64,000 bases of DNA, taken from positions 1,088,001-1,152,000 of the forward strand of contig AE017150.2 of the NCBI GenBank assembly GCA_000002445.1. Reading direction: 5' to 3'. The notes under the pieces were generated by a model. It searched no databases and was not told the DNA's origin. It saw only the letters and a program-made list of their open reading frames with translations. Positions within the stretch are counted from its first letter, which is position 1, and each line of letters starts with the position of its first letter. Below, piece by piece: positions 19,481 to 64,000 of the stretch. The DNA is from Trypanosoma brucei. Lineage: Eukaryota. The position numbers and the translations under genes were made by a program.

Positions 19481-20869
19481 ATGGCAATGCTTGGTTTCGA
19501 GTCGACAGCTGAATTTTTCGTCTATCTCACCTTTATCTTTTTTGGGATGTCGGTGATGAATGTGACGAATGCCATTTACTCCAATTATGATTATTTCTCG
19601 GAATATTACAAGTTTGCGCAGCGTAATGCAGATGCGATATCCTCCAATCCATCATTCTGGAAGCACATGTTCACGTATTATAATGTTGTTGTGTTTACGA
19701 TGCAAGTGCTTTTGGAGGCTTTTATGCTCACACCATTGGGCCGACGCATTCCTATTAGTTGGCGTCTCATCTTTGGACTCACAATTCCTATGGTGGAGAT
19801 TATTGTGATTTTAGTGATCCCTGAAGTTGGAGGAAGCGAAGATGGTGCAATCGCAACTATGATGATAGTTGCTTTTGTTGGTGGTATTTCCAAAACACTT
19901 TGTGACTCCAGCAATGCTGCACTTGCGGGACCGTTTCCGACTAAATTCTATGGTGCCATCGTGTGGGGTCTTGCTGTCTCTGGCCTCATGACTTCATTTA
20001 TGTCTATTGTTATCAAAGCATCGATGGACAGCAGTTTTGAAAGCAAGAGAGTTCAGTCCCAAATATACTTTGGATTAGTCATGCTTCTTCAGGTGGTTGC
20101 ATGCGTGCTTCTTGTCCTTCTGAGGAAAAACCCATATGCCATTAAATATGCTGCAGAATTTAGGTATGCTGCGAGGAAGGATGGAGCAACAGGTGAAGAA
20201 GATGACACCGATTTTAAAGGAAGGGGCCCAGCAGATGAGAATAGATATCCCGATGAAAAGGATGACAAGAATGTGCTGAATGCTGATATTGATCCAGATA
20301 AGATGAAGGATACGGATCAGGTTGAAGGCACTACCAACGCTCAGCAGATGCTTGATGCGAGTGTTATGGTTGTGGTGAAACGCATTTGGCCCATGTTACT
20401 TTCATGCTTCTTTGTGTTCTTTGCGACACTTCTTGTATTCCCTGGTGTATTCTTTGCCGTTAAAGGCTCGATGGATCTTAATAACTTTTGGTACTTTCCC
20501 GTTGCCATTGCCATGTTCAACTTGGGTGATTTCTTGTCTCGTCTGGTGCTGCAGTTCAAGCAATTGCATGTGTCTCCGCGTATGGTTTTGATTGGTTCAT
20601 TTGCACGTGCACTTTTGATAATTCCTCTTTCTCTTTGTGTGTCCGGTGCAATTCCTGGTGTGGGGGTTCCTTTTACCGTTTCTCTCCTTTGGGGTCTCAC
20701 AAATGGTTACTTTGGTGGCCTTTCAATGATTTATGGACCACGTACGGGATCCCTCACCACAGCGGGTCAACGCTCTCTTGCTGCCATTTGCATTAATGTT
20801 GCCCTTCTTATGGGTCTTTTTGCTGGTGCTATGTTTGCCTTGGCTGTTAAGGAGGGACTTCCTAAATAA
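19481..20869 (+). CDS. Equilibrative nucleoside transporter (ENT family), TbNT2-family purine nucleoside transporter, copy 1; 462 aa
   Basis: Multi-pass membrane protein (MAMLGFESTAEFFVYLTFIFFGMSVMNVTNAIYS...) with a large charged central loop (KDG..EDD..PDEK..NADIDPDKMKD) and about 11 hydrophobic segments. It matches my recollection of the TbNT2-7 ENT proteins. Which TbNT number each copy carries cannot be decided from the sequence alone. Confidence 0.92.
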   Translation: MAMLGFESTAEFFVYLTFIFFGMSVMNVTNAIYSNYDYFSEYYKFAQRNADAISSNPSFWKHMFTYYNVVVFTMQVLLEAFMLTPLGRRIPISWRLIFGLTIPMVEIIVILVIPEVGGSEDGAIATMMIVAFVGGISKTLCDSSNAALAGPFPTKFYGAIVWGLAVSGLMTSFMSIVIKASMDSSFESKRVQSQIYFGLVMLLQVVACVLLVLLRKNPYAIKYAAEFRYAARKDGATGEEDDTDFKGRGPADENRYPDEKDDKNVLNADIDPDKMKDTDQVEGTTNAQQMLDASVMVVVKRIWPMLLSCFFVFFATLLVFPGVFFAVKGSMDLNNFWYFPVAIAMFNLGDFLSRLVLQFKQLHVSPRMVLIGSFARALLIIPLSLCVSGAIPGVGVPFTVSLLWGLTNGYFGGLSMIYGPRTGSLTTAGQRSLAAICINVALLMGLFAGAMFALAVKEGLPK

Positions 20870-20956
20870 ATTTCTCAAAACTTGTAAATACTTTAAGTAA
20901 TGACATATCATTAGTTTTTAATTTATTAATGAAAAAGAAGATAAATGATACTCGAT

Positions 20957-20978
20957 GCTGGTATCAGCTAGGAGTGGT
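20957..20978 (+). promoter_or_regulatory. Conserved 3'-flank hairpin motif GCUGGUAUCAGCUAGGAGUGGU, 88 nt after the NT copy 1 stop
   Basis: The motif is conserved downstream of all five NT genes while the flanking 3' sequence has diverged. GCUG/CAGC can form a 4-bp stem with a GUAU loop. Confidence 0.35.
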
Positions 20979-23589
20979 GTGAATGATGCAATAAAAAGAA
21001 GGGTAAGGATAGTAAAGAGATGAGCGAGAAATTGAAATATGAGGAATAAGAATAAATTCTAGTTAGAAAAGAATTATATGATATTTGAGAGTAATGAAGC
21101 ATATGCGTGCACACGTTATGTTGTTTTAAATGTGATAAATGGTATAAAAGAAGAAAGTACGTCTTTCCCTTTTCGTTTCTCTAAACTTGTGACTGAGTAT
21201 AAATAAACATATCTGCAATCATTTTAAAAGAGAGAGAAGTGGACGGAGGACCGCAGGTGCGCGTTCATATAATTGTCTTTTTCTTTTTTCCCGTTTTCAT
21301 TATGTTGTGATTGACTCCCTACAAATATCATAATTTCCTCCAATGTTTTGTGTAGCTTTCGTAATTTTTAACAGGAGAAATGATGGTGCAGATCCATTCT
21401 TTGGTGTATACTCAATTTTTGTCTTCTGTTGGATCAATTTCTTTTTGTTGAAACAAAAAAGCAAAAAGGAGGAAATAAAATATACGACTGTAGAAACATA
21501 AACGAACTATCAAAAAAAAAACACATATACATATTTATAATATGTGTTCTTTCTGCACAAAAAAAAAAAGAAAAAAATTGTATTAGTTACAATAATAAAA
21601 AATAGTGAAGCCAGCAGGAGGTGATAATTACAATTTGAACTCATCCCCTCTTGCCTATTTCACTATTCCCTTTGTTTCTTGAGAAAATAACTAAAACAGT
21701 AAAACAAGAGAGAGGATAGTAATAAATTGAATGAAATCAACAATACATTATTTTAAGAGGAAATTTGATTTTACTTTTTCTTTACTTTTCACTGTTTCTG
21801 TTTTTTGATTACTTTTACTTCCTTTCATTTCTTACTTTTTATTCCCATGACTGTGCTATGGTGTTACGGATATGTGTGTGTAAGTGAGGAATGTTGTGTG
21901 GATTTGCTTCTATTATTGTTTACTTGCCTTTGGTTGTATATCACACGCCTGCTTATGTTTTCCCATATGTGTACGCCTGCAGCAAACAGTGTGGGAATTT
22001 ACTCCGTGACTTTTTCTCATAAATGTCGGGAGGCAAATAATTAAATTAATTTTTTGTTTAATGTATCTGTATATGTTTGTCTGTTTATGTGTATGTGTTT
22101 GTGTGTACGTATTTGACATGTTCAGCAATATGTTTAGATTATCCAATAATAACTTCTCTTCCTTTCTATCTCTTATACAGTTATGTTGTTTACTTGTCAC
22201 TGTTTTACTTTCAGGAAAGTGTATAAATTAAGCTGAAGCAACGTTATGTTTATTTGTGTATTAGGCGCATGAATTCATTTTCTAGCAGTTAATGTACGTA
22301 TGCATACACGCATGTGTTTAACTTTATAATGTCTTATACTAAAAATGTATTCAAATATTGCCATGTGAATACCGTGTGAGGCTTATTGTATTTTTGTGTC
22401 GTGAAATAGTCAAGTAGTTGCTGTGTAACTTTTGTGTTTTTTCTTAAATAGATGACGTGTGTTTCCTTAGTTTAAAATATTTAATAAATGATTTGACAGC
22501 TGCTTGCATGTGAGAGTTTCATTCCTCTTCTTTGCTTAAAAATGTGCAGAGACTGGAATCCTTCATATAAATGATGTGAAATGCATAACTTATAAATTGC
22601 ATTTCCACTTTCACATATTGTAATATTATTGAGTATCAAAAGGGAAATGATGAATTACGTAATAGGAAGTTATTCACAACATGTTAATAGAGCAATTTAA
22701 CTTCGCAGCTATCACAGAACAGGCTTTTTATTGTAATGCTTATTTGTGGAATAGCTCATGCTTTATGAATTCTTGAGGATGGAGCGTTGTAATATTTTTA
22801 AAAGTAAACATAAGTAAACAAATAAATAAACAGTTTATCATTTTTGTATTTGCCTTCATAATCACTATAAGCTAAGCTATTAGTCTATTAACAATAATTA
22901 ATATGGCTACTAGTAAGGCAAAAGACGAGAAATAAGAAATTAATTTATAGGAATGATTTGATAGTTTGACGAATGTGTAATTATCATGTCTCTGATACTA
23001 GTGACGGATTATGATAGAGAGAATATGATTTGTGAGGTAGTTTTGATTCTCTGAAGTGATACAGCGGCGCATGGGAACTCGTCGTAAGAAAAAAAGAAAT
23101 AAATAATGTGCGGTATGTAATTTTTAAACCTCACATTGATGAGGTTGTGAGGCATAAAATAACTCTTGCCATTTTCCCAACGTGGCCAACAGTCGAAGAA
23201 CTGGTGCAACACTGCAGTAATGATACAGTGATGTTAAATTGAAAGCGAAAAATAAATATGAATGGCGTAAAAAGGGGGAAGGAAGTAGTGATGGTGGCGT
23301 AATCGATTTGGATTGTTTTTCGTGACAAATTCTCTACATTCAATGATTCTAGAGGAAACAAGTACGTACCATAGCAGTGGTTACTGTGTTTCCATAAGGA
23401 GTAAGTTATATTTACTGGAAAATGTGGTATTAAGAAATGTTATATGTGAGTAGTAATATACCTCAACACAGAGATGTACGCTCATGTAATCACTACACAA
23501 AAACCTTCCGAATGTTTTGAACGCACTGAGCGGATTGATGCGTCTCTCCAACCTTGAGTTGAAATGCACAACCCTTGAGTGTTGAGTTG

Positions 23590-26586: not shown

Positions 26587-27546
26587 ATGACACGCGCCTC
26601 GCTTCCTGTTATTGATGTTTCGCCCCTATTTGGTGGCGAATCCGCAGAAAAGGAAAGGGTCTCCAAGCAGATTGATAATGCATGCAGAACATGGGGCTTC
26701 TTCTACATTGTGGGGCATCCGATCCAGCAGGAGCAGATTGAGAGGGTGCTAGATGTAGCGAAGAATTATTTTTCACTCCCCATGGAAGAGAAGCTCAAAT
26801 TGGACATTCGTAAAAGTAAGCTGTATCGTGGTTATATTGCTTTTGGGGCCGAGGACCCCGATGATGCTAAGGTCTACGGCTACGAGGGGTTCAATATGGG
26901 GCACCATCTTCCGAAGCACCACCCAGAGGTTATGGCAGGAGTGCCGCTCCGAGGACCGAACATCCACCCCACTCAGGTAAAGGGCTGGGCGGAGGAAATG
27001 GAAAATCAATATGACGATATGTGGGCCCTTTCACTTGTTATCCTGCGCGCTATGGCACTGGGACTCGGCCTGCGGGAAGATTTCTTCGACTCCAAGTTTA
27101 TGGATCCGATGTGTGAATTGAATATAAAGCATTACCCTTCCCCAACCACTACAGGCAAAAAATCTCATTTGCTTATTGAGCACGCTGACTTTTGCGCTAT
27201 TACATTACTCTATCAAGACGGTGTGGGTGGCTTGCAAATTCGAGGACTTTCCGGAGAGCTGATGGATGTGCCACCTGTTGAAGGAAGTTTTGTTGTCAAC
27301 ATTGGAGACATGATGGAGATGTGGACCAATGGCCAATACCGTTCTACCATGCACCGTGTTGTTCCGAGAAGTGGCACACGGTACTCCATGCCTTTTTTCT
27401 GTGTCCCAAACCCGAATGTCATTATTAAGTGCCTCGACAACTGTCATTCGGAGGAGAATCCACCAAGGTACCCTCCAGTGCGGGCTGTTGACTGGATTTT
27501 GAAGCGATTCGCGGAAGTGTTTTCGCTTGCAAAACCTAAAATGTAG
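26587..27546 (+). CDS. 2-oxoglutarate/Fe(II)-dependent dioxygenase, isopenicillin-N-synthase-like ('iron/ascorbate oxidoreductase' family), copy A (type I, with a divergent C-terminal tail); 319 aa
   Basis: DIOX_N-like N-terminus (LPVIDVSPLFGG...WGFFYIVGHPI). Iron-binding facial triad H-x-D...H (LLIEHADF ... STMHRVV) and the 2OG-binding R-x-S (RYSMPFF) are all present. The supplied ORF begins 66 nt earlier; the ATG at 26587 (MTRASLPV) is conserved in all four copies. Confidence 0.9.
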   Translation: MTRASLPVIDVSPLFGGESAEKERVSKQIDNACRTWGFFYIVGHPIQQEQIERVLDVAKNYFSLPMEEKLKLDIRKSKLYRGYIAFGAEDPDDAKVYGYEGFNMGHHLPKHHPEVMAGVPLRGPNIHPTQVKGWAEEMENQYDDMWALSLVILRAMALGLGLREDFFDSKFMDPMCELNIKHYPSPTTTGKKSHLLIEHADFCAITLLYQDGVGGLQIRGLSGELMDVPPVEGSFVVNIGDMMEMWTNGQYRSTMHRVVPRSGTRYSMPFFCVPNPNVIIKCLDNCHSEENPPRYPPVRAVDWILKRFAEVFSLAKPKM

Positions 27547-31335: not shown

Positions 31336-31409
31336 GTTTTGAAAATTTATGATACCTTCAAATAATGTGAAAAATTTTTTGTAACTAGTGAAATAAAAAA
31401 AAGCTCCGT

Positions 31410-31430
31410 GCTGGTATCAGCCAGGAGTGG
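31410..31430 (+). promoter_or_regulatory. Conserved 3'-flank hairpin motif (gctggtatcagccaggagtgg), 75 nt after the NT copy 2 stop
   Basis: Same motif as at 20957. Confidence 0.35.
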
Positions 31431-34400
31431 TTTTAATAATTTAAGAAAAAAAAGTAAAAAGGAGGAAATGAAGAATGGGAAATAACAATAAATTGTACGA
31501 ATAAGGATAATAGGGGACCCGGAAGCGAGCAAGCATGGATTTTATCTGTTTTATTCATGTTTATGGGGAATTTCTTTAAACATTATCGTATGTGTTTATC
31601 AATTTTTTTGCGGTGTATATACGTGTTGTTGAAGATACATTTTACATGGTCTAAAGAATATTGTGAGGAACTGAAGTTGTTGTCATGTTGCACTTATGTT
31701 GTTACCTTCTTATTTGTTATTATGCTGTTGTACAATCGATTCTAATAACATAATTTCTTTGAGTATCTTTTGAAGGTTATGTAATGTTCATATGGGAAAA
31801 TGAAGGTGCAGAACCATTCTTTGGTGTATACTCAATTTTTGTCTTCTGTTGGATCAATTTCTTTTTGTTGAAACAAAAAAGCAAAAAGGAGGAAATAAAA
31901 TATACGACTGTAGAAACATAAACGAACTATCAAAAAAAAAACACATATACATATTTATAATATGTGTTCTTTCTGCACACACAAAAAAAAAAGAAAAAAA
32001 TTGTATTAGTTACAATAATAAAAAATAGTGAAGCCAGCAGGAGGTGATAATTACAATTTGAACTCATCCCCTCTTGCCTATTTCACTATTCCCTTTGTTT
32101 CTTGAGAAAATAACTAAAACAGTAAAACAAGAGAGAGGATAGTAATAAATTGAATGAAATCAACAATACATTATTTTAAGAGGAAATTTGATTTTACTTT
32201 TTCTTTACTTTTCACTGTTTCTGTTTTTTGATTACTTTTACTTCCTTTCATTTCTTACTTTTTATTCCCATGACTGTGCTATGGTGTTACGGATATGTGT
32301 GTGTAAGTGAGGAATGTTGTGTGGATTTGCTTCTATTATTGTTTACTTGCCTTTGGTTGTATACCACACGCCTGCTTATGTTTTCCCATATGTGTACGCC
32401 TGCAGCAAACAGTGTGGGAATTTACTCCGTGACTTTTTCTCATAAATGTCGGGAGGCAAATGATTAAAGTGTTTTTTTTTGTTTAATATATCTGTATATG
32501 TTTGTCTGTTTATGTGTGTGTGTTTGTGTGTACGTATTTGACATGTTCAGCAATATGTTTAGATTATCCAATAATAACTTCTCTTCCTTTCTATCTCTTA
32601 TACAGTTATGTTGTTTACTTGTCACTGTTTTACTTTCAGGAAAGTGTATAAATTAAGCTGAAGCAACGTTATGTTTATTTGTGTATTAGGCGCATGAATT
32701 CATTTTCTAGCAGTTAATGTACGTATGCATACACGCATGTGTTTAACTTTATAATGTCTTATACTAAAAATGTATTCAAATATTGCCATGTGAATACCGT
32801 GTGAGGCTTATTGTATTTTTGTGTCGTGAAATAGTCAAGTAGTTGCTGTGTAACTTTTGTGTTATTCTTAAATAGATGACGTGTGTTTCCTTAGTTTAAA
32901 ATATTTAATAAATGATTTGACAGCTGCTTGCATGTGAGAGTTTCATCCCTCTTCTTTGCTTAAAAATGTGCAGAGACTAGAATCCTTCATATAAATGATG
33001 TGAAATGCATAAATTATAAATTGCATTTCCACTCTCACGTATTTTAGTATTATGAAGTATCAAATAGGGAAATGATGAAATATGTAATAGGAAGTTATTC
33101 ACAACATGTTAATAGAGCAATTCAACTTCGCAGCTATCACAGAACAGGCTTTTTATTGTAATGCTCAATTGTGGAATAAGACATGCTTTATGAATTCTTG
33201 AGGATGGAGCGTTGTAATATTTTTAAAAGTAATATAAGTAAACAAGCAAACAAATTATCGTTTTTGTTTCTTCCTTCATAATCACTATAAGCTAAGCTAT
33301 TAGTCTATTAACAATAATTAATATGGCTACTAGTAAGGCAAAAGACGAGAAATAAGAAATTAATTTATAGGAAAGATTTGATAGTTTGACGAATGTGTAA
33401 TTATCATGTCTCTGATACTAATGACGGATTATGATAGAGAGAATGTGATTTGTGAGGTAGTTTTGATTCTCTGAAGTGATACAGCGGCGCATGGGAACTC
33501 GTCGTAAGGAAAAAAAATAAATAATGTGCGGTATGTAATTTTTAAACCTCACATTGATGAGGTTGTGAGGCATAAAATAACTCTTGACATTTTCCCAACG
33601 TGGCCAACAGTCGAAGAACTGGTACAACACTGCAGTAATGATACAGTGATGTTAAATTGAAAGCGAAAAATAAATATGAATGGCGTAAAAAGGGGGAAGG
33701 AAGTAGTGATGGTGGCGTAATCGATTGTTACTGTGTTTCATGACAAATTCTCTACATTCAATGATTCTAGAGGAAACAAGTACGTACCATAGCAGTGGTT
33801 ACTGTGTTTCCATAAGGAGTAAGTTATATTTACTGGAAAATGTGGTATTAAGAAATGTTATATGTGAGTAGCAATATACCTCAACACAGAGATGTACGCT
33901 CATGTAATCACTACACAAAAACCTTCCGAATGTTTTGAACGCGTTGACCGGATTGATGCGTCTCTCCAACCTTGAGTTGAAATGCACAACCCTTGAGTGT
34001 TGAGTTGGGATACATATTTTTAGATGTCACTAGAGCTTGATGTGTGGAATGAAACTCTAGAGCTCATGCATATGGCTAATGCTTATCATCGTCGTAACTT
34101 CCATGTTGGTACGATGATGTGCAGTTTGCTGTTAGTGATAGCCTTCAGCAGATTGTATGGTAGGTGGTGTTTCTCTGTTTGTTTTCTGTCACAGATGGCA
34201 ATGGAAGCGTCGACTATCTTTTGTATTACTCAGAAGGGAAAATTCTCTTTTTAAGTAATGGTAATGTTGAATCGTTGATAAAACCAACGGAATAATCCAT
34301 AAGCTAGTTTTAATTGGAGGAAAGGAGAATAGGAGAACTGCCAACTTTGATGTGTTGCCAACAAAGGAAAACGAGTGGTATGTATATTTTAGAACCCAGT

Positions 34401-37002: not shown

Positions 37003-37962
37003 ATGACACGCGCCTCGCTTCCTGTTATTGATGTTTCGCCCCTATTTGGTGGCGAATCCGCAGAAAAGGAAAGGGTCTCCAAGCAGATTGATAATGCATG
37101 CAGAACATGGGGCTTCTTCTACATTGTGGGGCATCCGATCCAGCAGGAGCAGATTGAGAGGGTGCTAGATGTAGCGAAGAATTATTTTTCACTCCCCATG
37201 GAAGAGAAGCTCCAATTGGACATTCGTAAAAGTAAGCTGTATCGTGGTTATATTGCTTTTGGGGCCGAGGACCCCGATGATGCTAAGGTCTACGGCTACG
37301 AGGGGTTCAATATGGGGCACCATCTTCCGAAGCACCACCCAGAGGTTATGGCAGGAGTGCCGCTCCGAGGACCGAACATCCACCCCACTCAGGTAAAGGG
37401 CTGGGCGGAGGAAATGGAAAATCAATATGACGATATGTGGGCCCTTTCACTTGTTATCCTGCGCGCTATGGCACTGGGACTCGGTCTGCGGGAAGATTTC
37501 TTCGACTCCAAGTTTATGGATCCGATGTGTGAATTGAATATAAAGCATTACCCTTCCCCAACCACTACAGGCAAAAAATCTCATTTGCTTATTGAGCACG
37601 CTGACTTTTGCGCTATTACATTACTCTATCAAGACGGTGTGGGTGGCTTGCAAATTCGAGGACTTTCCGGAGAGCTGATGGATGTGCCACCTGTTGAAGG
37701 AAGTTTTGTTGTCAACCTTGGAGACATGATGGAGATGTGGACCAATGGCCAATACCGTTCCACAAAGCATCGTGTGGTAGCCACAGACAAGGAACGGTAC
37801 TCCATGCCTTTCTTTTGCAATCCCAATCCGAATGTCATCGTCAAGTGCCTCGACAACTGTCACTCGGAAGAGAATCCACCAAGGTACCCTCCAGTGCGGG
37901 CTGTTGATTGGGTTTTGAAGCGGTTCGCGGAGGCATATGGGAAAGATTACTCAAAAATGTAG
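37003..37962 (+). CDS. 2OG-Fe(II) dioxygenase, IPNS-like family, copy B (type I); 319 aa
   Basis: Identical to copy A over residues 1-270 except K/Q at position 71. The HxD...H and RxS motifs are present (IEHADF, STKHRVV, RYSMPFF). Confidence 0.9.
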   Translation: MTRASLPVIDVSPLFGGESAEKERVSKQIDNACRTWGFFYIVGHPIQQEQIERVLDVAKNYFSLPMEEKLQLDIRKSKLYRGYIAFGAEDPDDAKVYGYEGFNMGHHLPKHHPEVMAGVPLRGPNIHPTQVKGWAEEMENQYDDMWALSLVILRAMALGLGLREDFFDSKFMDPMCELNIKHYPSPTTTGKKSHLLIEHADFCAITLLYQDGVGGLQIRGLSGELMDVPPVEGSFVVNLGDMMEMWTNGQYRSTKHRVVATDKERYSMPFFCNPNPNVIVKCLDNCHSEENPPRYPPVRAVDWVLKRFAEAYGKDYSKM

Positions 37963-41741: not shown

Positions 41742-41812
41742 TAAGTATTTTCTAAACTCTAAGTAATGTCATAACATTTTTTTTAATTAATGAGAAAGAA
41801 CATTAAATATAT

Positions 41813-41833
41813 GCTGGTATTAGCTACGAATGG
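41813..41833 (+). promoter_or_regulatory. Conserved 3'-flank motif, variant (gctggtattagctacgaatgg), 72 nt after the NT copy 3 stop
   Basis: Variant of the motif at 20957. The stem remains possible with a G-U pair. Confidence 0.3.
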
Positions 41834-44800
41834 TTTGGGTACTGCGGTAAATAAGGAAGTAGAGATGGTAAAAGAGGAATGAAAGGAAAAACAGGTAAAT
41901 TTAAGATGTGATGACGATAAATTATAGGAAGTATCACACCTGGCAGCAAGCAAGTATATGCGTGTACACGTAATGTTTTTTAAATGTAAAGGTGACGCAA
42001 AGAGAAGTGTTAGTGGGTTACAAACGCACCACGTAAGGTACGATACGGCGGAGTTCTGCAAGCTTGTACCATGACAGTATTTCACTATTTTGTTTATTAG
42101 CATAGACTTCCCCTCTAAAATATGATTTTTATGGTAAGGGTCGTAAATTGTGAGATTGTATTTACGGTCTCACTCATTGGTGCAAACCTCCGACACACTT
42201 TACTTCCTACCTTTCTTAATGGTCCACAATATTTGTGTGAAAGAAAGAGTTATTCTTCAGCTTGTGGGATGCCTTGTGTTTTCTGCCCATATGTGTAAAG
42301 AACATTTAAAAGAAAAATAATAAACTGTTAAAGCTTAAGGTAACTTCAGCCTTACTTGTTTTTCATCTCTTTTTTTCCCTTTGTAACTGTGCTATGGTGT
42401 TACGGATATTTGTGCCTAAGTTAGGAAAGCTGTGTGGATTTGTTTTTTTCTATTTCATGTCTTTCGTTGTATACCACACGCCTGCTTATGTTTTCCCATA
42501 TGTGTACGCCTGTAGATAACAGTGTGGGAGTTTACTCCGTGACTTTTTCTCATAAATGTCGGGAGGCAAATGATTAAAGTATTTTGTTTAATATGTCTGT
42601 ATATGTTTGTCTGTTTATGTGTGTGTGTGTTTGATATGTTCAGCAATATGTTTAGATTATCCAATAATAACTTCTCTTCCTTTCTATCTCTTATACAGTT
42701 ATGTTGTTTACTTGTGACTGTTTTACTTTCAGGAAGGTATATAAATTAAGCTGAAGCAACGTTATGTTTATTTGTGTATTAGGCGCATGAATTCATTTTC
42801 TAGCAGATGATATATGCGTGAACGCATGTGTTTAACTTTATAATGTCTTATACTAAAAATGTATTCAAATATTGCCATGTGAATACCTTGTGAGGCTTAT
42901 TGTATTTTTGTGTCGTGAAATAGTCAAGTAGTTGCTGTGTAACTTTTGTGTTTTTTCTTAAATAGATAATGTGTGTTTCCTTAGTTTAAAATATTTAATA
43001 AATGATTTGACAGCTGCTTGCATGTGAGAGTTTCATTCCTCTTCTTTGCTTAAAAATGTGCAGAGACTGGAATCCTTCATATAAATGATGTGAAATGCAT
43101 AACTTATAAATTGCATTTCCACTTTCACATATTGTAATATTATTGAGTATCAAAAAGGAAATGATGAATCATGTAATAGGAAGTTATTCACAACATGTTA
43201 ATAGAGCAATTTAACTTCGCAGCTATCACAGAACAGGCTTTTTATTGTAATGCTCAATTGTGGAATAAGACATGCTTTATGAATTCTTGAGGATGGAGCG
43301 TTGTAATATTTTTAAAAGTAAACATAAGTAAACAAATAAATAAACAGTTTATCATTTTTGTATTTGCCTTCATAATCACTATAAGCTAAGCTATTAGTCT
43401 ATTAGAAATAATTAATATGGCTACTAGTAAGGCAAAAGACGAGAAATAAGAAATTAATTTATAGGAATGATTTGATAGTTTGAAGGGTGTGTAATTATCA
43501 TGTCTCTTATACTAATGACGGATTATGCTAGAGAGAATGTGATTTGTGAGGTATTTGTGATTCTCTGAAGTGATACAGCGGTGCATGGGAACTCGTCGTA
43601 AGGATAAAAAAAATAAATAATGTGCGGTATGTAATTTTTAAACCTCACATTGATGAGGTTATGAGGCATAAAATAACTCTTGCCATTTTCCCAACGTGGC
43701 CAACAGTCCAAGAACTAGTGTAGTACTGCAGTAATGATACAGTGATGTTAAATTGAAAGCGAAAAATAAATATGAATGGCGTAAAAAGGGGGAAGGAAGT
43801 AGTGATGGTGGCGTAATCGATTTGGATTGTTTTTCGTGACAAATTCTCTACATTCAATGATTCTAGAGGAAACAAGTACGTACCATAGCAGTGGTTACTG
43901 TGTTTCCATAAGGAGTAAGTTATATTTACTGGAAAATGTGGTATTAAGAAATGTTATATGTGAGTAGCAATATACCTCAACACAGAGATGTACGCTCATG
44001 TAATCACTACACAAAAACCTTCCGAATGTTTTGAACGCGTTGACCGGATTGATGCGTCTCTCCAACCTTGAGTTGAAATGCACAACCCTTGAGTGTTGAG
44101 TTGGGATACATATTTTTAGATGTCACTAGAGCTTGATGTGTGGAATGAAACTCTAGAGCTCATGCATATGGCTAATGCTTATCATCGTCGTAACTTCCAT
44201 GTTGGTACGATGATGTGCAGTTTGCTGTTAGTGATAGCCTTCAGTGGATTGTATGGTAGGTGGTGTTTCTCTATTTGTTTTCTGTCACAGATGGCAATGG
44301 AAGCGTCGACTATCTTTTGTATTACTCAGAAGGGAAAATTCTCTTTTTAAGTAATGGTAATGTTGAATCGTTGATAAAATCAACGGAATTATCCATAAGC
44401 TAGTTTTAATTGGAGGAAAGGAGAATAGGAGAACTGCCCACTTTGATGTGTTGCGGACAAAGAAAAGTGAGTGGTATGCATATTTTAGAACCCAGTATTT
44501 TTCTTTCTTATCCGATGTACTTCCCTAATGTTTGGATCTGAGAAATACCTAATGATGATTAATACGGTTAGAGTTAGGGCATTCTTTTGTGATGCTGAAT
44601 ATCGCATCTATTGATAACAGCAATCGATACGCCATACTCAAACATAAATGAATTCTCACACATTAACGCTGCTTCTGGTATCGCCAACCGTTATGTTCAA
44701 TAGCTCGTTACGTGGGAGCATGAGTGGATGTAATGATGGATGCCGCTTCATCAAAGGCAGCTGCGTGATACTTATCTCAGAATATGTCAATGGTGTCGTA

Positions 44801-50451: not shown

Positions 50452-51843
50452 ATGGCAATGCTTGGTTTCGAGTCGACAGCTGAATTTTTTGTCTATCTCA
50501 CCTTCATCTTTTTTGGGATGTCGGTGATGAATGTGACGAATGCCATTTACTCAGTCCCTGATTTTTTTTCTGATTATTATAAATTTGTTAAAAATGAGGA
50601 AAAAGCGAAACCTGTCAATGCATCGTTCTGGAAGCACATGTTCACGTATTATAATGTTGTTGTGTTTACGATGCAAGTGGTTTTGGAGGCTTTTATGCTC
50701 ACACCATTGGGCCGACGGATTCCTATTAGTTGGCGTCTCATCTTTGGACTCACAATTCCTATGGGTGAGATCATTGCAATTTTAGTGATTCCTGCTGTTG
50801 GAGGAAGTGAAAATTGTGCAATTGCAACTGTTATGATGGTTGCTTTTGTTGGTGGTATTTCCAAAACACTTTGTGACTCCAGCAATGCTGCACTTGCGGG
50901 ACCTTTTCCGACTAAATTCTATGGTGCCATCGTGTGGGGCCTTTCCGTGTCCGGTATGATTACTTCATTTATGGCTATTGTCATTAAAGCATCGATGAAG
51001 GATAGTTTTGAAAGTAAGAGAGTTCAGTCCCAAATATACTTTGGATTAGTCATGCTTCTTCAGGTGGTTGCATGCGTGCTTCTTGTCCTTCTGAGGAAAA
51101 ACCCATATGCCATTAAATATGCTGCAGAATTTAGGTATGCTGCGAGGAAGGATGGAAAGACAGATGATGGCGAAGATGAAAACGATGCAAAGGGAACAGG
51201 GCCAGCAGACGAAGATGGGTATCCTGATGAAAAAGAGAATAAGAATGTATTGAATGCTGATATTGATCCAGATAAGATGAAGGATACGGATCAGGTTGAA
51301 GGCACTACCAACGTTCAGCAAATGCTTGATGCGAGTGTTATGGTTGTGGTGAAACGTATTTGGCCCATGTTACTTTCATGCTTTTTTGTGTTCTTTGCGA
51401 CACTTCTTGTATTTCCTGGTGTATTCTTTGCTGTTAAAGATGGATTAAATGTTAAAAATGGATGGTACTTTACTATTGTCATTGCCATGTTCAACTTTGG
51501 TGATTTCCTTACGAGGCTTCTTCTTCAGTTCAAGCAGCTGCACCTGTCTCCACGCATGGTTATGATTGGTTCATTTGCACGTGCACTTTTGATAATTCCG
51601 CTTTCATTATGTGCAGCTGGTACCATTCCTGGTATATGGCTTCCCTACACCGTTTCTCTCCTTTGGGGTCTTACGAACGGTTACTTTGGTGGTTTAACAA
51701 TGATTTATGGACCACGTACGGGATCCCTCACCACAGCGGGTCAACGCTCTCTTGCTGCCATTTCTACAAATGTATCACTACTTTCGGGTCTCTTTGTTGG
51801 TGCTATGTTTGCATTGGCTGTTAAGGAGGGACTTCCTGAATAA
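50452..51843 (+). CDS. ENT-family nucleoside transporter, TbNT2-family, copy 4; 463 aa
   Basis: Distinct TM1-TM2 loop (SVPDFFSDYYKFVKNEEKAKPVNASFWKHM). Its central loop is identical to those of copies 2 and 5. Confidence 0.92.
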   Translation: MAMLGFESTAEFFVYLTFIFFGMSVMNVTNAIYSVPDFFSDYYKFVKNEEKAKPVNASFWKHMFTYYNVVVFTMQVVLEAFMLTPLGRRIPISWRLIFGLTIPMGEIIAILVIPAVGGSENCAIATVMMVAFVGGISKTLCDSSNAALAGPFPTKFYGAIVWGLSVSGMITSFMAIVIKASMKDSFESKRVQSQIYFGLVMLLQVVACVLLVLLRKNPYAIKYAAEFRYAARKDGKTDDGEDENDAKGTGPADEDGYPDEKENKNVLNADIDPDKMKDTDQVEGTTNVQQMLDASVMVVVKRIWPMLLSCFFVFFATLLVFPGVFFAVKDGLNVKNGWYFTIVIAMFNFGDFLTRLLLQFKQLHLSPRMVMIGSFARALLIIPLSLCAAGTIPGIWLPYTVSLLWGLTNGYFGGLTMIYGPRTGSLTTAGQRSLAAISTNVSLLSGLFVGAMFALAVKEGLPE

Positions 51844-51903
51844 ATTCTCAATAATTGTAAAAATTACAATTAATACAATTTTTTTTTTTAAAAAAGGCTC
51901 CAT

Positions 51904-51924
51904 GCTGGTATCAGCTAGGAGTGG
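51904..51924 (+). promoter_or_regulatory. Conserved 3'-flank hairpin motif (gctggtatcagctaggagtgg), 61 nt after the NT copy 4 stop
   Basis: Same motif as at 20957. Confidence 0.35.
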
Positions 51925-54900
51925 TTTTAACGATGAAAATAATAAAAAAAATAAAATAGGAAAAGATAAGACAAAAAGGGGTTAATTCTAGGAAAGTGAA
52001 TAATATGACACATGGCAGCAAGCAAGCATATACGTGCATATGTTATGTAGTTTTGAGGTAAAAGTGACGCAAAGAAAAGTGTTAGTCGGTTACAAACGCA
52101 TCGCGCAAAGTACGATACGGCGGAGTTCTGCAAGCTTGTACCATGACAGTATTTCACTATTTTGTTAACTAACATGGATTTCACCTCTAAGATATGGTTT
52201 TAAGGGTAAGGGTTGTAAATTGTGAAATTGTATTGACGATCTCACTCATTAGTGCAAACCTTTGATACACTTTACTGTTTACTTTTGATGCAACACAAAA
52301 TTTGTGTGAAAGAAAGAGCTATACTTCAGCTTGTAGCGTTTTCAGTGCGCTTATTTTCATCACATGTGTGCAAACGAGTAAAAAAATGATGTGAACCCGA
52401 AAAGTCTTATTACTTTTCCTTTTATTCCCATGACCGTGCTATGGTGTTACGGATATGTGTGTAAGTGAGGAGTGTTGTGTGGATTTGCTTCTATTATTGT
52501 TTACTTGCCTTTGGTTGTATACCACACACCTGCTTATGTTTTCCCATATGTGTACGCCTGTAGATAACAGTGTGGGAGTTTACTCCGTGACGTTTTCTCA
52601 CAAATGTCTAGAGGCAAATGATTAAAGTAATTTTTTTGTTTAATGTATATCTGTATATGTTTGTCTGTTTATGTGTATGTGTGTTTGTGTGTACGTATTT
52701 GACATGTTCAGCAATATGTTTAGATTATCCAATTATATCTTTTCTTTTCTATTTTCTTATATTGTTTACTTGTCACTGTTTTACTTTCAGGAAGGTATAT
52801 AAATTAAGCTGAAGCAACGTTATGTTCATTTGTGTATTAGACACATGAGTTTATTTCCAAGCAGATGATATATGCGTGAACGCGTGTGTTTAACTTTATA
52901 ATGTCTTATACTAAAGATGTATCCAAATATTGCCATGCTAATACCTTGTGAGGCTTATTGTACTTTTGTGTTGTGAAATAGTCAAGTAGTTGCTGTGTAA
53001 CTTTTGTGTTATTTTTTAGATAATGTGTGTTTTCTTAGTCTAATATCTTTAATAAATGATTTGACAGCTGCTTGCATGTGAGGGTTTCATTCCTCTTCTT
53101 TGCTTAAAAATGTGCAGAGACTGGAATCCTTTATATAAATGAAGTGAAATGCATAACTTATAAATTGCATTTCCACTTTCACATATTGTAATATTATTGA
53201 GTATCAAAAGGGAAATGATGAATCATGTAATAGGAAGTCATTCACAACATGGTAATAGAGCAATTCATCTTCGAAGCTATAACGGAACAAGCTTTTTATT
53301 GTAATGCTTATTTGTGGAATAGCTCATGCTTTATGAATGCTTGAGGATGGAGCGTTGTAATATTTTTAAAAGTAATATAAGTAAACTAGCAAACAAATTA
53401 TCGTTTTTGTTTCTTCCTTCATAATCACTATAAGCTAAGCTATTAGTCTATTAGCAATAATTAATATGACTACTAGTAGGGCAAAAGACGAGAAATAAGA
53501 AATTAATTTATAGGAATGATTTGATAGTTTGAAGGGTGTGTAATTATCATGTCTCTTATACTAATGACGGATTATGCTAGAGAGAATGTGATTTGTGAGG
53601 TATTTGTGATTCTCTGAAGTGATACAGCGGTGCATGGGAACTCGTCGTAAGGATAAAAAAAATAAATAATGTGCGGTATGTAATTTTTAAACCTCACATT
53701 GATGAGGTTGTGAGGCATAAAATAACTCTTGCCATTTTCCCAACGTGGCCAACAGTCCAAGAACTAGTGTAGTACTGCAGTAATGATACAGTGATGTTAA
53801 ATTGAAAGCGAAAAATAAATATGAATGGCGTAAAAAGGGGGAAGGAAGTAGTGATGGTGGCGTAATCGATTGTTACTGTGTTTCATGACAAATTCTCTAC
53901 ATTCAATGATTCTAGAGGAAACAAGTACGTACCATAGCAGTGGTTACTGTGTTTCCATAAGGAGTAAGTTATATTTACTGGAAAATGTGGTATCAAGAAA
54001 TGTTATATGTGAGTAGCAATATACCTCAACACAGAGATGTACGCTCATGTAATCACTACACACAAAAAAGTTCTGAAAGTTTTGAACGCGTTGAGCGGAT
54101 TGATACGTCTCTCCAACCTTGAGTTGAAATGCGCAACCCTTGAGTGTTGAGTTGGGATACATATTTTTAGATGTCACTAGAGCTTGATGTGTGGAATGAA
54201 ACTCTAGAGCTCATGCATATGGCTAATGCTTACCGTGGGCAAAACTTGTCGATGTTGGTACGATGATATGCGATTTGTTGGCAGTGATAGCTTTCAGCGG
54301 ATTGTATGGTAGGTGGTGTTTTTTTTTCTGCCACAGGCGGCAATGGCAGTGTTGACTAATTTTTGAATTACTCAGAAGGGAAATTTCTCTGTTTAAGTGA
54401 TGATCATGTTGAATCGTTGATAAAATCAACGGAATTATCCATAATTAGTTTTAATTGGAGGAAAATGAAATAGGAGAACTGCCCACGTTGATGTGTTGCG
54501 GACAAAGAAAAGTGAGTGGTATGCATATTTTAGAACCCAGTATTTTTCTTTCTCATCTGATGTGCTTCCCTAATGTTTGGATCTGAGGAATACCTAATGA
54601 TGATTAATGCGGTTAGAGTTAGGGCATTCTTTTGTGATGCTGAATATTGTATCTATTGATAACAACAATCGATACGCCATACTCAAACATAAATGAATTC
54701 TCACACATAAACGCTGCTTCTGGTATCGCCAACCGTTATGTTCAATAGCTCGTTACGTGGAGCATGAGTGGATGTGACAGTGAATGTTCCTTCATCAAAG
54801 ACAGCTGCGTGATGCTTAACTCAGAATATGTCAATGGTATCGTATTATAGCCAAGTTTAAGTTTAATAATTAATAATAGTGATGTGTGTGGGAAAAGTGA

Positions 54901-57622: not shown

Positions 57623-58582
57623 ATGACACGCGCCTCGCTTCCTGTTATTGATGTTTCGCCCCTATTTGGTGGCGAATCCGCAGAAAAGGAAAGGGTCTCC
57701 AAGCAGATTGATAATGCATGCAGGACATGGGGCTTCTTCTACATTGTGGGACATCCGATTCAGCAGGAGCAGATTGACAAAGTACTTAAGTTAGCTGATA
57801 CTTTTTTCTCTCTTCCTATGGAGGAGAAGCTCAAATTGGACGTTCGCAAGGGTAGACTTTATCGTGGTTACACTGCCCCTGGAGTAGAGGAAGCTGATGT
57901 AGGGAAGGTTTACACGTACGAGACCTTTACGACGGGATACCATCTTCCTAAGCACCATCCAGACGTCATGGCAGGCAAACCGCTCCGAGGACCGAATATC
58001 CACCCCACTCAAGTGAGGGGATGGATGGAGGGTATGGAAGGTCATTACCGCGATATGTGGGCACTTGCGCTTGTCCTCCTGCGCGCTATGGCGCAAGCTA
58101 TCGGTTTGCAGGAAGATTTCTTCGACTCCAAGTTTATGGATCCCCTTTGTGAATTGAATATAAAGCACTACGTTCCCTTATCTCAAACGAAAGAAGAAAC
58201 TACTTTGCTCATTGAGCACAGCGATTTCGGTGTTATGACGTTACTCTATCAAGACGCTTCAGGTGGCTTGCAAGTACGTGATAGTTCCGGAGAGCTGATG
58301 GATGTGCCACCTGTTGAAGGAAGTTTTGTTGTCAACCTTGGAGACATGATGGAGATGTGGACCAATGGCCAATACCGTTCCACAAAGCATCGTGTGGTAG
58401 CCACAGACAAGGAACGGTACTCCATGCCTTTCTTTTGCAATCCCAATCCGAATGTCATCGTCAAGTGCCTCGACAACTGTCACTCGGAAGAGAATCCACC
58501 AAGGTACCCTCCAGTGCGGGCTGTTGATTGGGTTTTGAAGCGGTTCGCGGAGGCATATGGGAAAGATTACTCAAAAATGTAG
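57623..58582 (+). CDS. 2OG-Fe(II) dioxygenase, IPNS-like family, copy D (type II); 319 aa
   Basis: Identical to copy C except residue 285 (V/I) and residue 305 (V versus I). Confidence 0.9.
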   Translation: MTRASLPVIDVSPLFGGESAEKERVSKQIDNACRTWGFFYIVGHPIQQEQIDKVLKLADTFFSLPMEEKLKLDVRKGRLYRGYTAPGVEEADVGKVYTYETFTTGYHLPKHHPDVMAGKPLRGPNIHPTQVRGWMEGMEGHYRDMWALALVLLRAMAQAIGLQEDFFDSKFMDPLCELNIKHYVPLSQTKEETTLLIEHSDFGVMTLLYQDASGGLQVRDSSGELMDVPPVEGSFVVNLGDMMEMWTNGQYRSTKHRVVATDKERYSMPFFCNPNPNVIVKCLDNCHSEENPPRYPPVRAVDWVLKRFAEAYGKDYSKM

Positions 58583-62374: not shown

Positions 62375-62442
62375 GAGTTTTTAAAACATTAAATAATGTC
62401 TAAACTTTTTTTAAATTAATAAAATAAAAAAATAAACTCCAT

Positions 62443-62463
62443 GCTGGTATCAGCTAGGAGTGG
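62443..62463 (+). promoter_or_regulatory. Conserved 3'-flank hairpin motif (gctggtatcagctaggagtgg), 69 nt after the NT copy 5 stop
   Basis: Same motif as at 20957. Confidence 0.35.
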
Positions 62464-64000
62464 TTTTAACGATGAAAATAATAAAAAAAATAAAATAGGA
62501 AAAGATAAGACAAAAAGGGGTTAATTCTAGGAAAGTGAATAATATGACTCATGGCAGCAAGCAAGCATATACGTGCATATGTTATGTAGTTTTGAGGTAA
62601 AAGTGACGCAAAGAAAAGTGTTAGTCGGTTACAAACGCATCGCGCAAAGTACGATACGGCGGAGTTCTGCAAGCTTGTACCATGACAGTATTTCACTATT
62701 TTGTTAACTAACATGGATTTCACCTCTAAGATATGGTTTTAAGGGTAAGGGTTGTAAATTGTGAAATTGTATTGACGATCTCACTCATTAGTGCAAACCT
62801 TTGATACACTTTACTGTTTACTTTTGATGCAACACAAAATTTGTGTGAAAGAAAGAGCTATACTTCAGCTTGTAGCGTTTTCAGTGCGCTTATTTTCATC
62901 ACATGTGTGCAAACGAGTAAAAAAATGATGTGAACCCGAAAAGTCTTATTACTTTTCCTTTTATTCCCATGACCGTGCTATGGTGTTACGGATATGTGTG
63001 TAAGTGAGGAGTGTTGTGTGGATTTGCTTCTATTATTGTTTACTTGCCTTTGGTTGTATACCACACACCTGCTTATGTTTTCCCATATGTGTACGCCTGT
63101 AGATAACAGTGTGGGAGTTTACTCCGTGACGTTTTCTCACAAATGTCTAGAGGCAAATGATTAAAGTAATTTTTTTGTTTAATGTATATCTGTATATGTT
63201 TGTCTGTTTATGTGTATGTGTGTTTGTGTGTACGTATTTGACATGTTCAGCAATATGTTTAGATTATCCAATTATATCTTTTCTTTTCTATTTTCTTATA
63301 TTGTTTACTTGTCACTGTTTTACTTTCAGGAAGGTATATAAATTAAGCTGAAGCAACGTTATGTTCATTTGTGTATTAGACACATGAGTTTATTTCCAAG
63401 CAGATGATATATGCGTGAACGCGTGTGTTTAACTTTATAATGTCTTATACTAAAGATGTATCCAAATATTGCCATGCTAATACCTTGTGAGGCTTATTGT
63501 ACTTTTGTGTTGTGAAATAGTCAAGTAGTTGCTGTGTAACTTTTGTGTTATTTTTTAGATAATGTGTGTTTTCTTAGTCTAATATCTTTAATAAATGATT
63601 TGACAGCTGCTTGCATGTGAGGGTTTCATTCCTCTTCTTTGCTTAAAAATGTGCAGAGACTGGAATCCTTTATATAAATGAAGTGAAATGCATAACTTAT
63701 AAATTGCATTTCCACTTTCACATATTGTAATATTATTGAGTATCAAAAGGGAAATGATGAATCATGTAATAGGAAGTCATTCACAACATGGTAATAGAGC
63801 AATTCATCTTCGAAGCTATAACGGAACAAGCTTTTTATTGTAATGCTTATTTGTGGAATAGCTCATGCTTTATGAATGCTTGAGGATGGAGCGTTGTAAT
63901 ATTTTTAAAAGTAATATAAGTAAACTAGCAAACAAATTATCGTTTTTGTTTCTTCCTTCATAATCACTATAAGCTAAGCTATTAGTCTATTAGCAATAAT

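What the first reader, a model, noticed from the sequence alone, without database searches (positions are those of the whole stretch)
20957..20978. Conserved ~21-nt hairpin motif 60-90 nt downstream of every transporter stop codon, inside otherwise diverged 3' flanks
The first ~500 bp after the stop codons have diverged almost completely between the two flank classes (units 1-2 versus 3-5), and substantially even within each class. Despite this, every copy retains gctggtatcagc(t/c)aggagtgg(t) at 20957, 31410, 41813 (variant gctggtattagctacgaatgg), 51904 and 62443. The GCUG...CAGC segment can fold as a 4-bp stem with a GUAU tetraloop. The island of conservation suggests a cis-acting 3'-UTR element, either an RNA-binding-protein site or a stability or translation control element. 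In trypanosomes gene regulation is largely 3'-UTR mediated, and NT-family mRNAs are known to respond to purine availability.
Basis: partly seen in the sequence, partly recalled or inferred. Interest (0 to 1): 0.5.

Follow-up and report, generated by a model that had tools for sequence, protein, structure and literature searches.

The report
Conserved hairpin in trypanosome transporter 3'UTRs
Five tandem nucleoside-transporter genes of Trypanosoma brucei share a roughly 30-base hairpin-forming sequence just after the stop codon, inside their mature 3'UTRs and surrounded by otherwise scrambled sequence; it is a credible but untested regulatory RNA element, not a known one.

Summary
The window is T. 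brucei TREU927 chromosome 2, 1,088,001-1,152,000, and holds the NT2-NT6 part of the NT2-NT7 transporter array. The motif occurs exactly five times, all on the + strand, 61-88 nt after each stop codon. None is expected by chance.

Context matters. The 10.4-kb repeat unit is 89-96% identical between copies, except for the coding sequence and about 0.5-1 kb directly after the stop. Within that hypervariable patch, a 23-nt island has 19 invariant columns. No column shuffle out of 20,000 reached that (maximum 16).

The fold is larger than proposed. It is a 26-nt hairpin with two helices (CUCC/GGAG around GCUG-GUAU-CAGC). It is stable in four copies and degenerate in NT4.

Published transcript maps put the motif inside every annotated 3'UTR (847-3,047 nt). 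Function is untested. The fragments that scored as positive regulators in a published reporter screen start 469-588 nt after the stop in five of six paralogues, so they exclude the motif. No data link NT2-7 to purine regulation. The structure is unlike the NT8 purine-response element. Covariation is uninformative.

NT5 and NT6 switch from 54% to 100% identity exactly at the hairpin's 5' edge, which marks a recombination junction.

Best reading: a protein-recognised 3'UTR hairpin (confidence about 0.5). Main rival: a neutral leftover of homology (about 0.3).

The parts
20950..20978 (+). NT2 (Tb927.2.6150) copy: hairpin 20950-20975 (ACUC-GAU-GCUG-GUAU-CAGC-UAG-GAGU) plus a GGU tail. The outer helix is 4 bp with a 3x3 internal loop.
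   Evidence: 33-nt fold -10.0 kcal/mol, z -1.8; hairpin kept in a 301-nt context fold; covariance model, 56 bits
31403..31431 (+). NT3 (Tb927.2.6200) copy: GCUCC-GU-GCUG-GUAU-CAGC-CA-GGAGU plus GGU. The outer helix is 5 bp with a G.U closing pair.
   Evidence: -13.1 kcal/mol, z -2.5; 63 bits. The T. b. gambiense orthologue has a G-C closing pair.
41806..41834 (+). NT4 (Tb927.2.6220) degenerate copy: the inner stem is kept through a G.U pair (C to U), the outer helix is lost (AAUAU / CGAAU), and the 21-mer has 3 substitutions.
   Evidence: -2.6 kcal/mol, z +0.5; 51 bits
51897..51925 (+). NT5 (Tb927.2.6240) copy: GCUCC-AU-GCUG-GUAU-CAGC-UA-GGAGU plus GGU.
   Evidence: -13.0 kcal/mol, z -2.8; kept in a 301-nt context fold; 62 bits
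62436..62464 (+). NT6 (Tb927.2.6280) copy: ACUCC-AU-GCUG-GUAU-CAGC-UA-GGAGU plus GGU. It is identical to the NT5 copy except for the closing-pair base.
   Evidence: 61-nt fold -14.5 kcal/mol, z -4.4; 65 bits
20870..22069 (+). Annotated 3'UTR of NT2 (1,200 nt) that contains the motif.
   Evidence: PMC11405848 Suppl. Data 1: UTR 1108870-1110069, minus the 1,088,000 offset
31336..32505 (+). Annotated 3'UTR of NT3 (1,170 nt). A longer isoform reaches about window position 34900.
   Evidence: Kolev Table S3
41742..42588 (+). Annotated 3'UTR of NT4 (847 nt). The 3'-most poly(A) site is at about window position 46900.
   Evidence: Kolev Table S1
51844..54881 (+). Annotated 3'UTR of NT5 (3,038 nt). 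The 3'-most poly(A) site is at about window position 57400.
   Evidence: Kolev Table S1
62375..64000 (+). Annotated 3'UTR of NT6 (3,047 nt; it runs past the end of the window).
51843..51897 (.). Diverged spacer between the NT5 stop codon and the hairpin. Its 3' end marks the NT5/NT6 recombination junction. The matching junction in NT6 is at 62436/62437.
   Evidence: identity 0.54 before the hairpin, 1.00 after it

Best explanation
The motif is a short structured RNA element in the proximal 3'UTR of the P1-type nucleoside-transporter mRNAs of the T. brucei chromosome 2 array (NT2, NT3, NT5 and NT6, with a decayed copy in NT4). It is a 26-nt hairpin: a 4-5 bp outer helix (A/G)CUCC / GGAGU, a small internal loop, a 4-bp inner helix GCUG/CAGC closed by a GUAU tetraloop, and an invariant GGU after it.

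I propose that purifying selection keeps it as the recognition site of a sequence- and structure-specific RNA-binding protein. That protein would place the paralogues, whose proximal 3'UTRs otherwise differ, under one common post-transcriptional control. The activity that raises expression in bloodstream forms maps to fragments further downstream, so the hairpin is more likely a modulatory, repressive or condition-specific switch than the main activating element.

Shown: the sequence island, its excess conservation over the local background, its position inside annotated mature 3'UTRs, and its thermodynamic plausibility.
Inferred: selection, action at the RNA level, protein binding, and the direction of the effect.
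For: - There are five copies and none expected by chance.
- 19 of 23 columns are invariant against a flank background of 19-27%, and 0 of 20,000 shuffles reach this.
- For NT2 vs NT5 and NT3 vs NT5, the 32-nt element is 88-94% identical while both immediate flanks are 55-62% identical. A gene-conversion tract cannot easily account for that.
- The hairpin folds at -10 to -13 kcal/mol in four copies (z -1.8 to -4.4) and survives in 301-nt context folds.
- The closing pair is A-U, G.U or G-C in different copies, and the one inner-stem change gives G.U.
- Loop and stem letters are invariant, as expected for sequence-specific recognition.
- The element lies inside all annotated 3'UTRs.
- T. brucei has precedents for short conserved elements in otherwise variable 3'UTRs: the NT8 PuRE and the VSG 16-mer.
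- A covariance-model scan finds it only after the array's transporter genes.
Against: - No experiment addresses the motif.
- Covariation is not significant: 92.6% of cells are paired against 90.7% in shuffles, with 115 of 500 shuffles as high.
- There are only four independent lineages, all within one species complex. T. congolense has no NT2-7 orthologue, and two T. vivax homologues lack the motif.
- The NT4 copy has lost the outer helix.
- The fragments that scored as positive regulators in the reporter screen exclude the motif in five of six paralogues.
- The array evolves in concert (8-kb tracts at 96% identity), and one recombination junction sits exactly at the motif. Recombination history therefore contributes to the pattern.
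- The island's conservation (83% invariant columns) is about equal to that of the coding sequence, not higher.
Confidence: 0.5

Rival explanations
1. Neutral leftover. The island is a surviving piece of ancestral homology in a patch otherwise reshaped by A/T-run slippage, insertions and replacement. Occasional recombination that uses the island as microhomology has refreshed it. It has no function of its own.
For: - Most of the 10.4-kb unit, including 8 kb of intergenic DNA, is 89-100% identical between copies without any need for function. Identity in this array is therefore weak evidence for selection.
- The NT5/NT6 junction between diverged and identical sequence lies exactly at the hairpin's 5' edge.
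- The flanks are AT-rich, low-complexity and full of indels.
- Island conservation is no higher than in the coding sequence.
- NT4 tolerates 3 substitutions and loss of the outer helix.
- There is no covariation.
- The reporter-screen activity maps elsewhere.
Against: - The hypervariable patch also holds complex, non-repetitive sequence that has truly diverged or been replaced. One example is the second-best block at about 21090-21125, which is about 75% identical between NT2 and NT5 and is lost in NT3. Slippage alone does not explain the contrast.
- For NT2/NT5 and NT3/NT5, both flanks are at 55-62% identity, which leaves no homology in which a 30-nt conversion tract could start or resolve.
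- The column-shuffle test rejects a uniform rate.
Confidence: 0.3
2. DNA-level recombination anchor. The island is kept because it gives a fixed homology point between the transporter coding cassette and the shared distal intergenic region. This would allow modular exchange by gene conversion, much as the conserved 3' end of VSG genes does.
For: - The NT5/NT6 junction lies at the motif.
- Coding-sequence identity is mosaic, typical of gene conversion.
- VSG cassettes are highly dissimilar except for their conserved 3' ends.
Against: - Only one of the pairwise junctions lies at the motif. The NT2/NT3 junction is at about +460 to +505, and those of NT2 or NT3 with NT4 or NT5 are at about +577 to +970.
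- 23-30 bp is short for efficient homologous recombination in T. brucei (my general knowledge, not tested here).
- The strict strand, the constant distance from the stop codon and the hairpin potential are not needed for a DNA anchor.
Confidence: 0.08
3. Purine-response element. This is the reader's specific suggestion and a special case of the best explanation. The hairpin would repress or activate NT2-7 mRNAs according to purine supply, either as a relative of the NT8/LdNT3 PuRE or through a different factor.
For: - The genes are purine salvage transporters.
- The related ENT genes NT8 and LdNT3 carry a short conserved 3'UTR stem-loop that is necessary and sufficient for purine-dependent repression.
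- LdNT1 and LdNT2 are also purine-regulated through their UTRs.
Against: - The PuRE is described as a 33-35-nt purine:pyrimidine stem with a large loop holding two conserved blocks. It is reported only in NT8/NT3 orthologues, and minor changes abolish its function. The present element has a tetraloop and two short helices.
- No Tb927.2.6xxx gene is among the growth-phase or guanosine-regulated mRNAs in procyclic forms.
- PuREBP1 depletion raises only NT8 and AATP6.
- LdNT1 and LdNT2 use polypyrimidine tracts, not hairpins.
Confidence: 0.1

Closest known systems
[quoted passage not shown]
   Same: It is a short (about 30 nt) predicted stem-loop, conserved in otherwise divergent 3'UTRs of ENT-family purine transporter genes of kinetoplastids. 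It is present in all tandem paralogues, and both its sequence and its structure matter.
   Different: The PuRE has a purine:pyrimidine stem and a large loop with two conserved blocks. It lies 0.2-2.7 kb after the stop and is conserved from Leishmania to T. cruzi and T. brucei. It has proven function and known binding proteins (PuREBP1/2). The present element has a GUAU tetraloop and two short helices, lies 54-88 nt after the stop, is seen only in the T. brucei chromosome 2 array, and has no functional data.
VSG 3'UTR 16-mer (recognised through CFB2; PMC8051951)
   Same: It is a short sequence common to an otherwise highly variable T. brucei gene family, in the 3'UTR, in genes expressed in bloodstream forms. 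It lies where conserved sequence meets variable cassettes that recombine.
   Different: The sequence is unrelated, and the 16-mer is absent from the window. The 16-mer is not described as a hairpin. It has been shown to be required for mRNA stability and for CFB2 action.
Procyclin 3'UTR conserved elements: the 16-mer stem-loop and the 26-mer (the 26-mer is mentioned in PMC4066783; the 16-mer is from my own knowledge of Hehl et al. 1994 and Furger et al. 1997)
   Same: Small conserved stem-loops shared by paralogous genes with otherwise divergent 3'UTRs, which control stage-specific expression.
   Different: They belong to a different gene family, life-cycle stage and sequence. I did not compare them at the sequence level here.

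Membership tests
PuRE (NT8/LdNT3 purine-response element) | Located in the mature 3'UTR of an ENT-family transporter mRNA | tested here: met
   Pfam Nucleoside_tran. The motif lies inside the annotated 3'UTRs.
PuRE (NT8/LdNT3 purine-response element) | A 33-35-nt stem-loop with a purine:pyrimidine stem and a multi-nucleotide loop carrying two conserved blocks | tested here: not met
   The folds give a 4-nt GUAU loop and two 4-5 bp helices separated by an internal loop.
PuRE (NT8/LdNT3 purine-response element) | Sequence similarity to the PuRE core (the T. brucei and L. donovani versions are 80% identical) | not testable with these tools
   The PuRE sequence appears only in figures that are not held as text, and the NT8 locus could not be fetched. 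The authors report no PuRE outside NT8/NT3 orthologues.
PuRE (NT8/LdNT3 purine-response element) | Confers purine-dependent repression and is bound by PuREBP1/2 | tested here: inconclusive
   No Tb927.2.6xxx gene is in the regulated lists for procyclic forms. PuREBP1 RNAi raises only NT8 and AATP6. However, NT2-7 are weakly expressed in procyclic forms, and bloodstream forms were not assayed.
VSG 16-mer type element | A short sequence shared by otherwise variable 3'UTRs of one paralogous family | tested here: met
VSG 16-mer type element | Matches the VSG 16-mer sequence (TGATATATTTTAACAC, recalled from memory) | tested here: not met
   There is no match at up to 2 mismatches in the window, and the motif sequence is unrelated.
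VSG 16-mer type element | Required for mRNA stability in bloodstream forms through CFB2 | not testable with these tools
   This needs reporter and RNAi experiments.
Any Rfam family | Covariance-model match at or near the gathering score | tested here: not met
   There are no gathering-score hits in the 64-kb window. A permissive scan of the NT5 proximal 3'UTR gave only noise at E above 1.

The most novel reading that the evidence does not exclude
The hairpin is the binding site of a dedicated, still unidentified RNA-binding protein. That protein would define a post-transcriptional regulon of the six P1-type nucleoside transporters and respond to nucleoside or purine supply, or to the slender-stumpy-procyclic transition, in bloodstream trypanosomes. 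This would be a second nutrient or stage-response element class in trypanosome ENT genes, independent of PuRE. It arose within the T. brucei lineage and also serves as the homology point where coding cassettes and distal UTRs recombine.
Probability: 0.15. Interest if true: 0.6.

Novelty: new member of a known kind. Interest (0 to 1): 0.35.

Why it matters
Trypanosomes control nearly all gene expression after transcription, yet only a handful of discrete cis-elements with defined sequence are known: PuRE, the VSG 16-mer and the procyclin elements. The NT2-7 transporters are the P1 purine-salvage route and take up nucleoside drugs, and they are 8-21-fold up-regulated in bloodstream forms. If functional, a defined 26-nt element shared by all paralogues would give a direct handle for finding their regulator, for example by RNA-bait purification as was done for PuREBP1/2. 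It would also help explain how paralogues with divergent proximal 3'UTRs are co-regulated. If it is not functional, it is a clean example of how concerted evolution in tandem arrays can mimic a conserved element.

Tried and rejected
- Rfam: no family matched, either at gathering score over the whole window or in a permissive scan of the NT5 proximal 3'UTR.
- Small ORF or relic of a C-terminal extension: the offsets from the stop are 88, 75, 72, 61 and 69 nt, so the reading frame is not constant. An in-frame ATG (ATGCTGG...) is GTG in NT3, and the peptides share only about 8 residues by reading the alignment. Rejected.
- Feature on the opposite strand: all copies are on the transcribed + strand, and no reverse-complement copy exists in the window.
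- Motif in other paralogues or homologues: it is absent from the 3' flanks of an NT10-like gene (L001), AT1 (L002), an NT11/12-like gene (L008) and two T. vivax homologues (L003, L006/L007). This held for mismatch search at up to 6 substitutions and for a covariance model with filters off.
- Other significant islands in the hypervariable patch: the next best block (about 21090-21125 in NT2) has only 8-9 of 23 invariant columns, which is within the shuffle expectation.
- Subspecies comparison as a selection test: the TREU927, gambiense and equiperdum flanks are 95-99% identical, too close to be informative.
- PuRE sequence for a direct alignment: it is not held as text.
- Literature search for the motif string: only unrelated primer sequences were found.

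Full report
**1. What is there**

The pattern GCTGGTATCAGCYAGGAGTGG occurs five times in the 64-kb window, at 20957, 31410, 51904 and 62443 (exact) and at 41813 (three substitutions). All copies are on the + strand. There are no other hits at up to 3 mismatches, and none in 100 dinucleotide-preserving shuffles. Each copy lies 61-88 nt after the stop codon of a 462-466-aa ORF that matches Pfam Nucleoside_tran. These ORFs alternate with 2OG-Fe(II) oxygenase ORFs. Upstream lie a PI-PLC, a beta'-COP, a RanBP-type zinc-finger protein and an ABC transporter.

**2. Identity of the window**

The closest proteins are 'adenosine transporter 2' of the T. brucei group. ORF coordinates in the supplementary tables of Kolev et al. 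2010 (PMC2936537) match the window ORFs exactly after adding 1,088,000:
- Tb927.2.6200: 1117941-1119335
- Tb927.2.6220: 1128353-1129741
- Tb927.2.6240: 1138452-1139843
- GPI-PLC: 1088353-1089429
- ABC transporter: 1102733-1105753

The window is therefore T. brucei brucei TREU927 chromosome 2, 1,088,001-1,152,000. The five genes are NT2 (Tb927.2.6150), NT3, NT4, NT5 and NT6. NT7 lies just beyond the window end. Jensen et al. 2009 describe this NT2-NT7 array alternating with iron/ascorbate oxidoreductase genes. They report NT3-NT7 mRNAs 8-21-fold higher in bloodstream than in procyclic forms (PMC2771046).

**3. Is it an island of conservation?**

- blastn and a full-unit alignment show that the 10.4-kb repeat units are 89-96% identical from about +460 to +970 nt after the stop through to the next transporter ATG.
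- Only the coding sequence and the first 0.5-1 kb after the stop are diverged. The coding sequence is a mosaic, 0.61-1.00 per 100 nt. The post-stop patch is 0.09-0.66 identical between the NT2/3 and NT4/5/6 classes, and 0.39-0.62 between NT2 and NT3 over the first 500 nt.
- The motif is thus an island inside a local hypervariable patch of an array that otherwise evolves in concert.
- Within the 3' flank alignment, the best 23-column window (TGCTGGTATCAGCTAGGAGTGGT) has 19 invariant columns, against a background of 19-27% invariant columns. None of 20,000 column shuffles reached 19 (maximum 16).
- Pairwise, the island is 19-23 of 23 identical, whereas ungapped flank columns are 47-65% identical.
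- No second block in the patch exceeds the shuffle expectation.

**4. Independence of the copies**

NT5 and NT6 are 69% identical in the last 100 nt of coding sequence and 54% identical between the stop and the hairpin. They are 100% identical from the hairpin onward (99.94% over 1,564 nt). The switch lies exactly at the 5' edge of the hairpin (51897/51898 and 62436/62437). This is a recombination junction, so these two copies count as one lineage.

The contrast still holds for the remaining lineages. For NT2 vs NT5 and NT3 vs NT5, the 32-nt element is 88-94% identical while both flanks are 55-62% identical. That leaves no adjacent homology in which a short conversion tract could begin and end.

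**5. Structure**

In NT4 a C-to-U change gives a G.U pair.

In NT2, NT3, NT5 and NT6, RNAfold and RNAalifold add an outer helix, (A/G)CUCC with GGAGU, across a 2x2 internal loop (3x3 in NT2). This gives a 26-nt hairpin of -10 to -13 kcal/mol in 33-nt folds. The z-scores across the 33- and 61-nt folds run from -1.8 to -4.4. The hairpin is retained in the minimum-energy and centroid folds of 301-nt contexts. In NT4 the outer helix is lost (-2.6 kcal/mol, z +0.5).

The closing pair is A-U (NT2, NT6), G.U (NT3, NT5) or G-C (T. b. gambiense NT3). This is compatible with pairing, but covariation is statistically empty. 92.6% of cells are paired against 90.7% in shuffles, and 115 of 500 shuffles are as high. 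The invariance of the loop and stem letters, and of the 3' GGU, points to recognition of sequence as well as shape, or simply to too little evolutionary time.

**6. Distribution**

Syntenic copies exist in T. b. gambiense (two in L004) and T. b. equiperdum (one in L005). Those flanks are 95-99% identical to TREU927, so they add little.

The motif is absent from the 3' flanks of an NT10-like gene, AT1, an NT11/12-like gene and two T. vivax homologues. This held for mismatch search and for a covariance model run without filters (best 10.6 bits, E above 2). The same model finds only the five known copies in the window (51-65 bits; next best 12 bits).

T. congolense has a single NT10-type nucleoside transporter and no NT2-7 orthologue (PMC9960827). 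The element, like the array, therefore appears specific to the T. brucei lineage. A genome-wide count could not be made with these tools.

**7. Is it in the mature mRNA?**

Trenaman et al. 2024 (PMC11405848, Supplementary Data 1) list these 3'UTR lengths: 1,200 nt (NT2), 1,170 (NT3), 847 (NT4), 3,038 (NT5), 3,047 (NT6) and 1,142 (NT7). Kolev et al. give 3'-most poly(A) sites 3.6-5.6 kb after the stop for NT3, NT4 and NT5. Those coordinates are rounded, and NT3 is flagged as having alternative 3' processing. The motif at +61 to +88 is inside all of these UTRs. Minor isoforms shorter than about 54 nt are not excluded.

**8. Functional data that bear on it**

In the same reporter screen, all six paralogues gave 3'UTR fragments enriched in the positive screen in bloodstream forms (log2 fold change 3.6-5.9). 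However, the fragments begin 469-588 nt after the stop in NT2, NT3, NT5, NT6 and NT7. Only the NT4 fragment spans the (degenerate) motif. The activating signal therefore does not need the hairpin, and the hairpin itself remains untested. The stored supplement file was truncated, so negative-screen data may be missing.

The neighbouring oxidoreductase genes are also higher in bloodstream forms without carrying the motif.

On purines:
- The NT8 PuRE is a 33-35-nt purine:pyrimidine stem with a large loop holding conserved blocks. It is reported only in NT8/NT3 orthologues.
- No Tb927.2.6xxx gene is in the growth-phase or guanosine-regulated lists for procyclic forms.
- PuREBP1 depletion raises only NT8 and AATP6.
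- LdNT1 and LdNT2 use polypyrimidine tracts.

It is not excluded for bloodstream forms.

**9. Explanation**

I favour, at about 0.5, a protein-recognised hairpin in the proximal 3'UTR that gives the paralogues one shared post-transcriptional input. The direction of the effect is unknown. The positive signal maps elsewhere, so a modulatory, repressive or condition-specific role is more likely than the main activator.

The main rival, at about 0.3, is a neutral leftover of homology in a patch reshaped by slippage and replacement. In an array where 8 kb of intergenic DNA is 90-100% identical for reasons of concerted evolution alone, identity is weak evidence for function.

A DNA-level recombination anchor (about 0.08) is suggested by the NT5/NT6 junction, but the other pairwise junctions lie elsewhere.

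**10. Comparison with known elements and novelty**

The element works like the PuRE, the VSG 16-mer (PMC8051951) and the procyclin stem-loops. Each is a short conserved element in otherwise variable 3'UTRs of a trypanosome gene family.

It is not a member of any of them:
- Its structure does not fit the published PuRE description.
- The VSG 16-mer is absent from the window.
- Rfam has no match.
- The motif string appears in no trypanosome paper in the library.

I rate it a candidate new member of a known kind. It is of moderate interest as a well-defined and cheaply testable lead, tempered by the lack of functional, covariation or cross-species support.

Noticed in passing
window 51843-51925 and 62374-62464: NT5 and NT6 switch from 54-69% identity (end of the coding sequence and the spacer) to 100% identity exactly at the 5' edge of the hairpin. 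The identical tract runs at least 1.56 kb downstream. This is a recombination or gene-conversion junction at the motif.
   Followed up: yes
window 20870-21840, 31336-32260, 41742-42370, 51844-52420 (approximate): The 10.4-kb repeat unit is 89-96% identical between copies, except for the coding sequence and a hypervariable patch of 0.5-1 kb immediately after each transporter stop codon. The proximal 3'UTR is the most diverged part of the whole unit, which may underlie paralogue-specific regulation.
   Followed up: partly
window 26587-27546, 37003-37962, 47099-48058, 57623-58582: The interleaved 2OG-Fe(II) oxygenase genes fall into two classes. Copies 1 and 2 differ from copies 3 and 4 at 57-76 of 319 residues. 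Copy 2 looks like a hybrid: it has 18 differences from copy 1 but the C-terminus (DYSKM) of copies 3 and 4.
   Followed up: partly
window 40353-40400 and 50452-50600: Kolev et al. Table S1 maps the 5'-most spliced-leader site of NT4 and NT5 inside the annotated ORFs, at 47 and 148 nt downstream of the annotated ATG. The coordinates are rounded. Either the start codons are misannotated or the result is a multi-mapping artefact in the repeat.
   Followed up: no
window 19481-20869 versus the other four transporter coding sequences: Coding-sequence identity between paralogues is strongly mosaic. For example, NT3/NT5 are 0.99-1.00 identical in some 100-nt blocks where NT2 or NT4 are 0.61-0.73. This is typical of patchy gene conversion or diversifying segments.
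   Followed up: no
window about 21090-21125 (NT2); the homologous blocks in NT4, NT5 and NT6 lie about 215-260 nt after their stop codons: There is a second, weaker shared block (GCAAGCAAGCATATACGTGCAYAYGTTATGT-like) in the hypervariable patch. It is largely lost in NT3 and is not above the shuffle expectation.
   Followed up: partly
NT7 (Tb927.2.6320), outside the window: NT7 mRNA was enriched 32-fold in the TbZFP3 mRNP of procyclic forms (PMC3326296). This is a possible lead to a trans-acting factor for this gene family.
   Followed up: no
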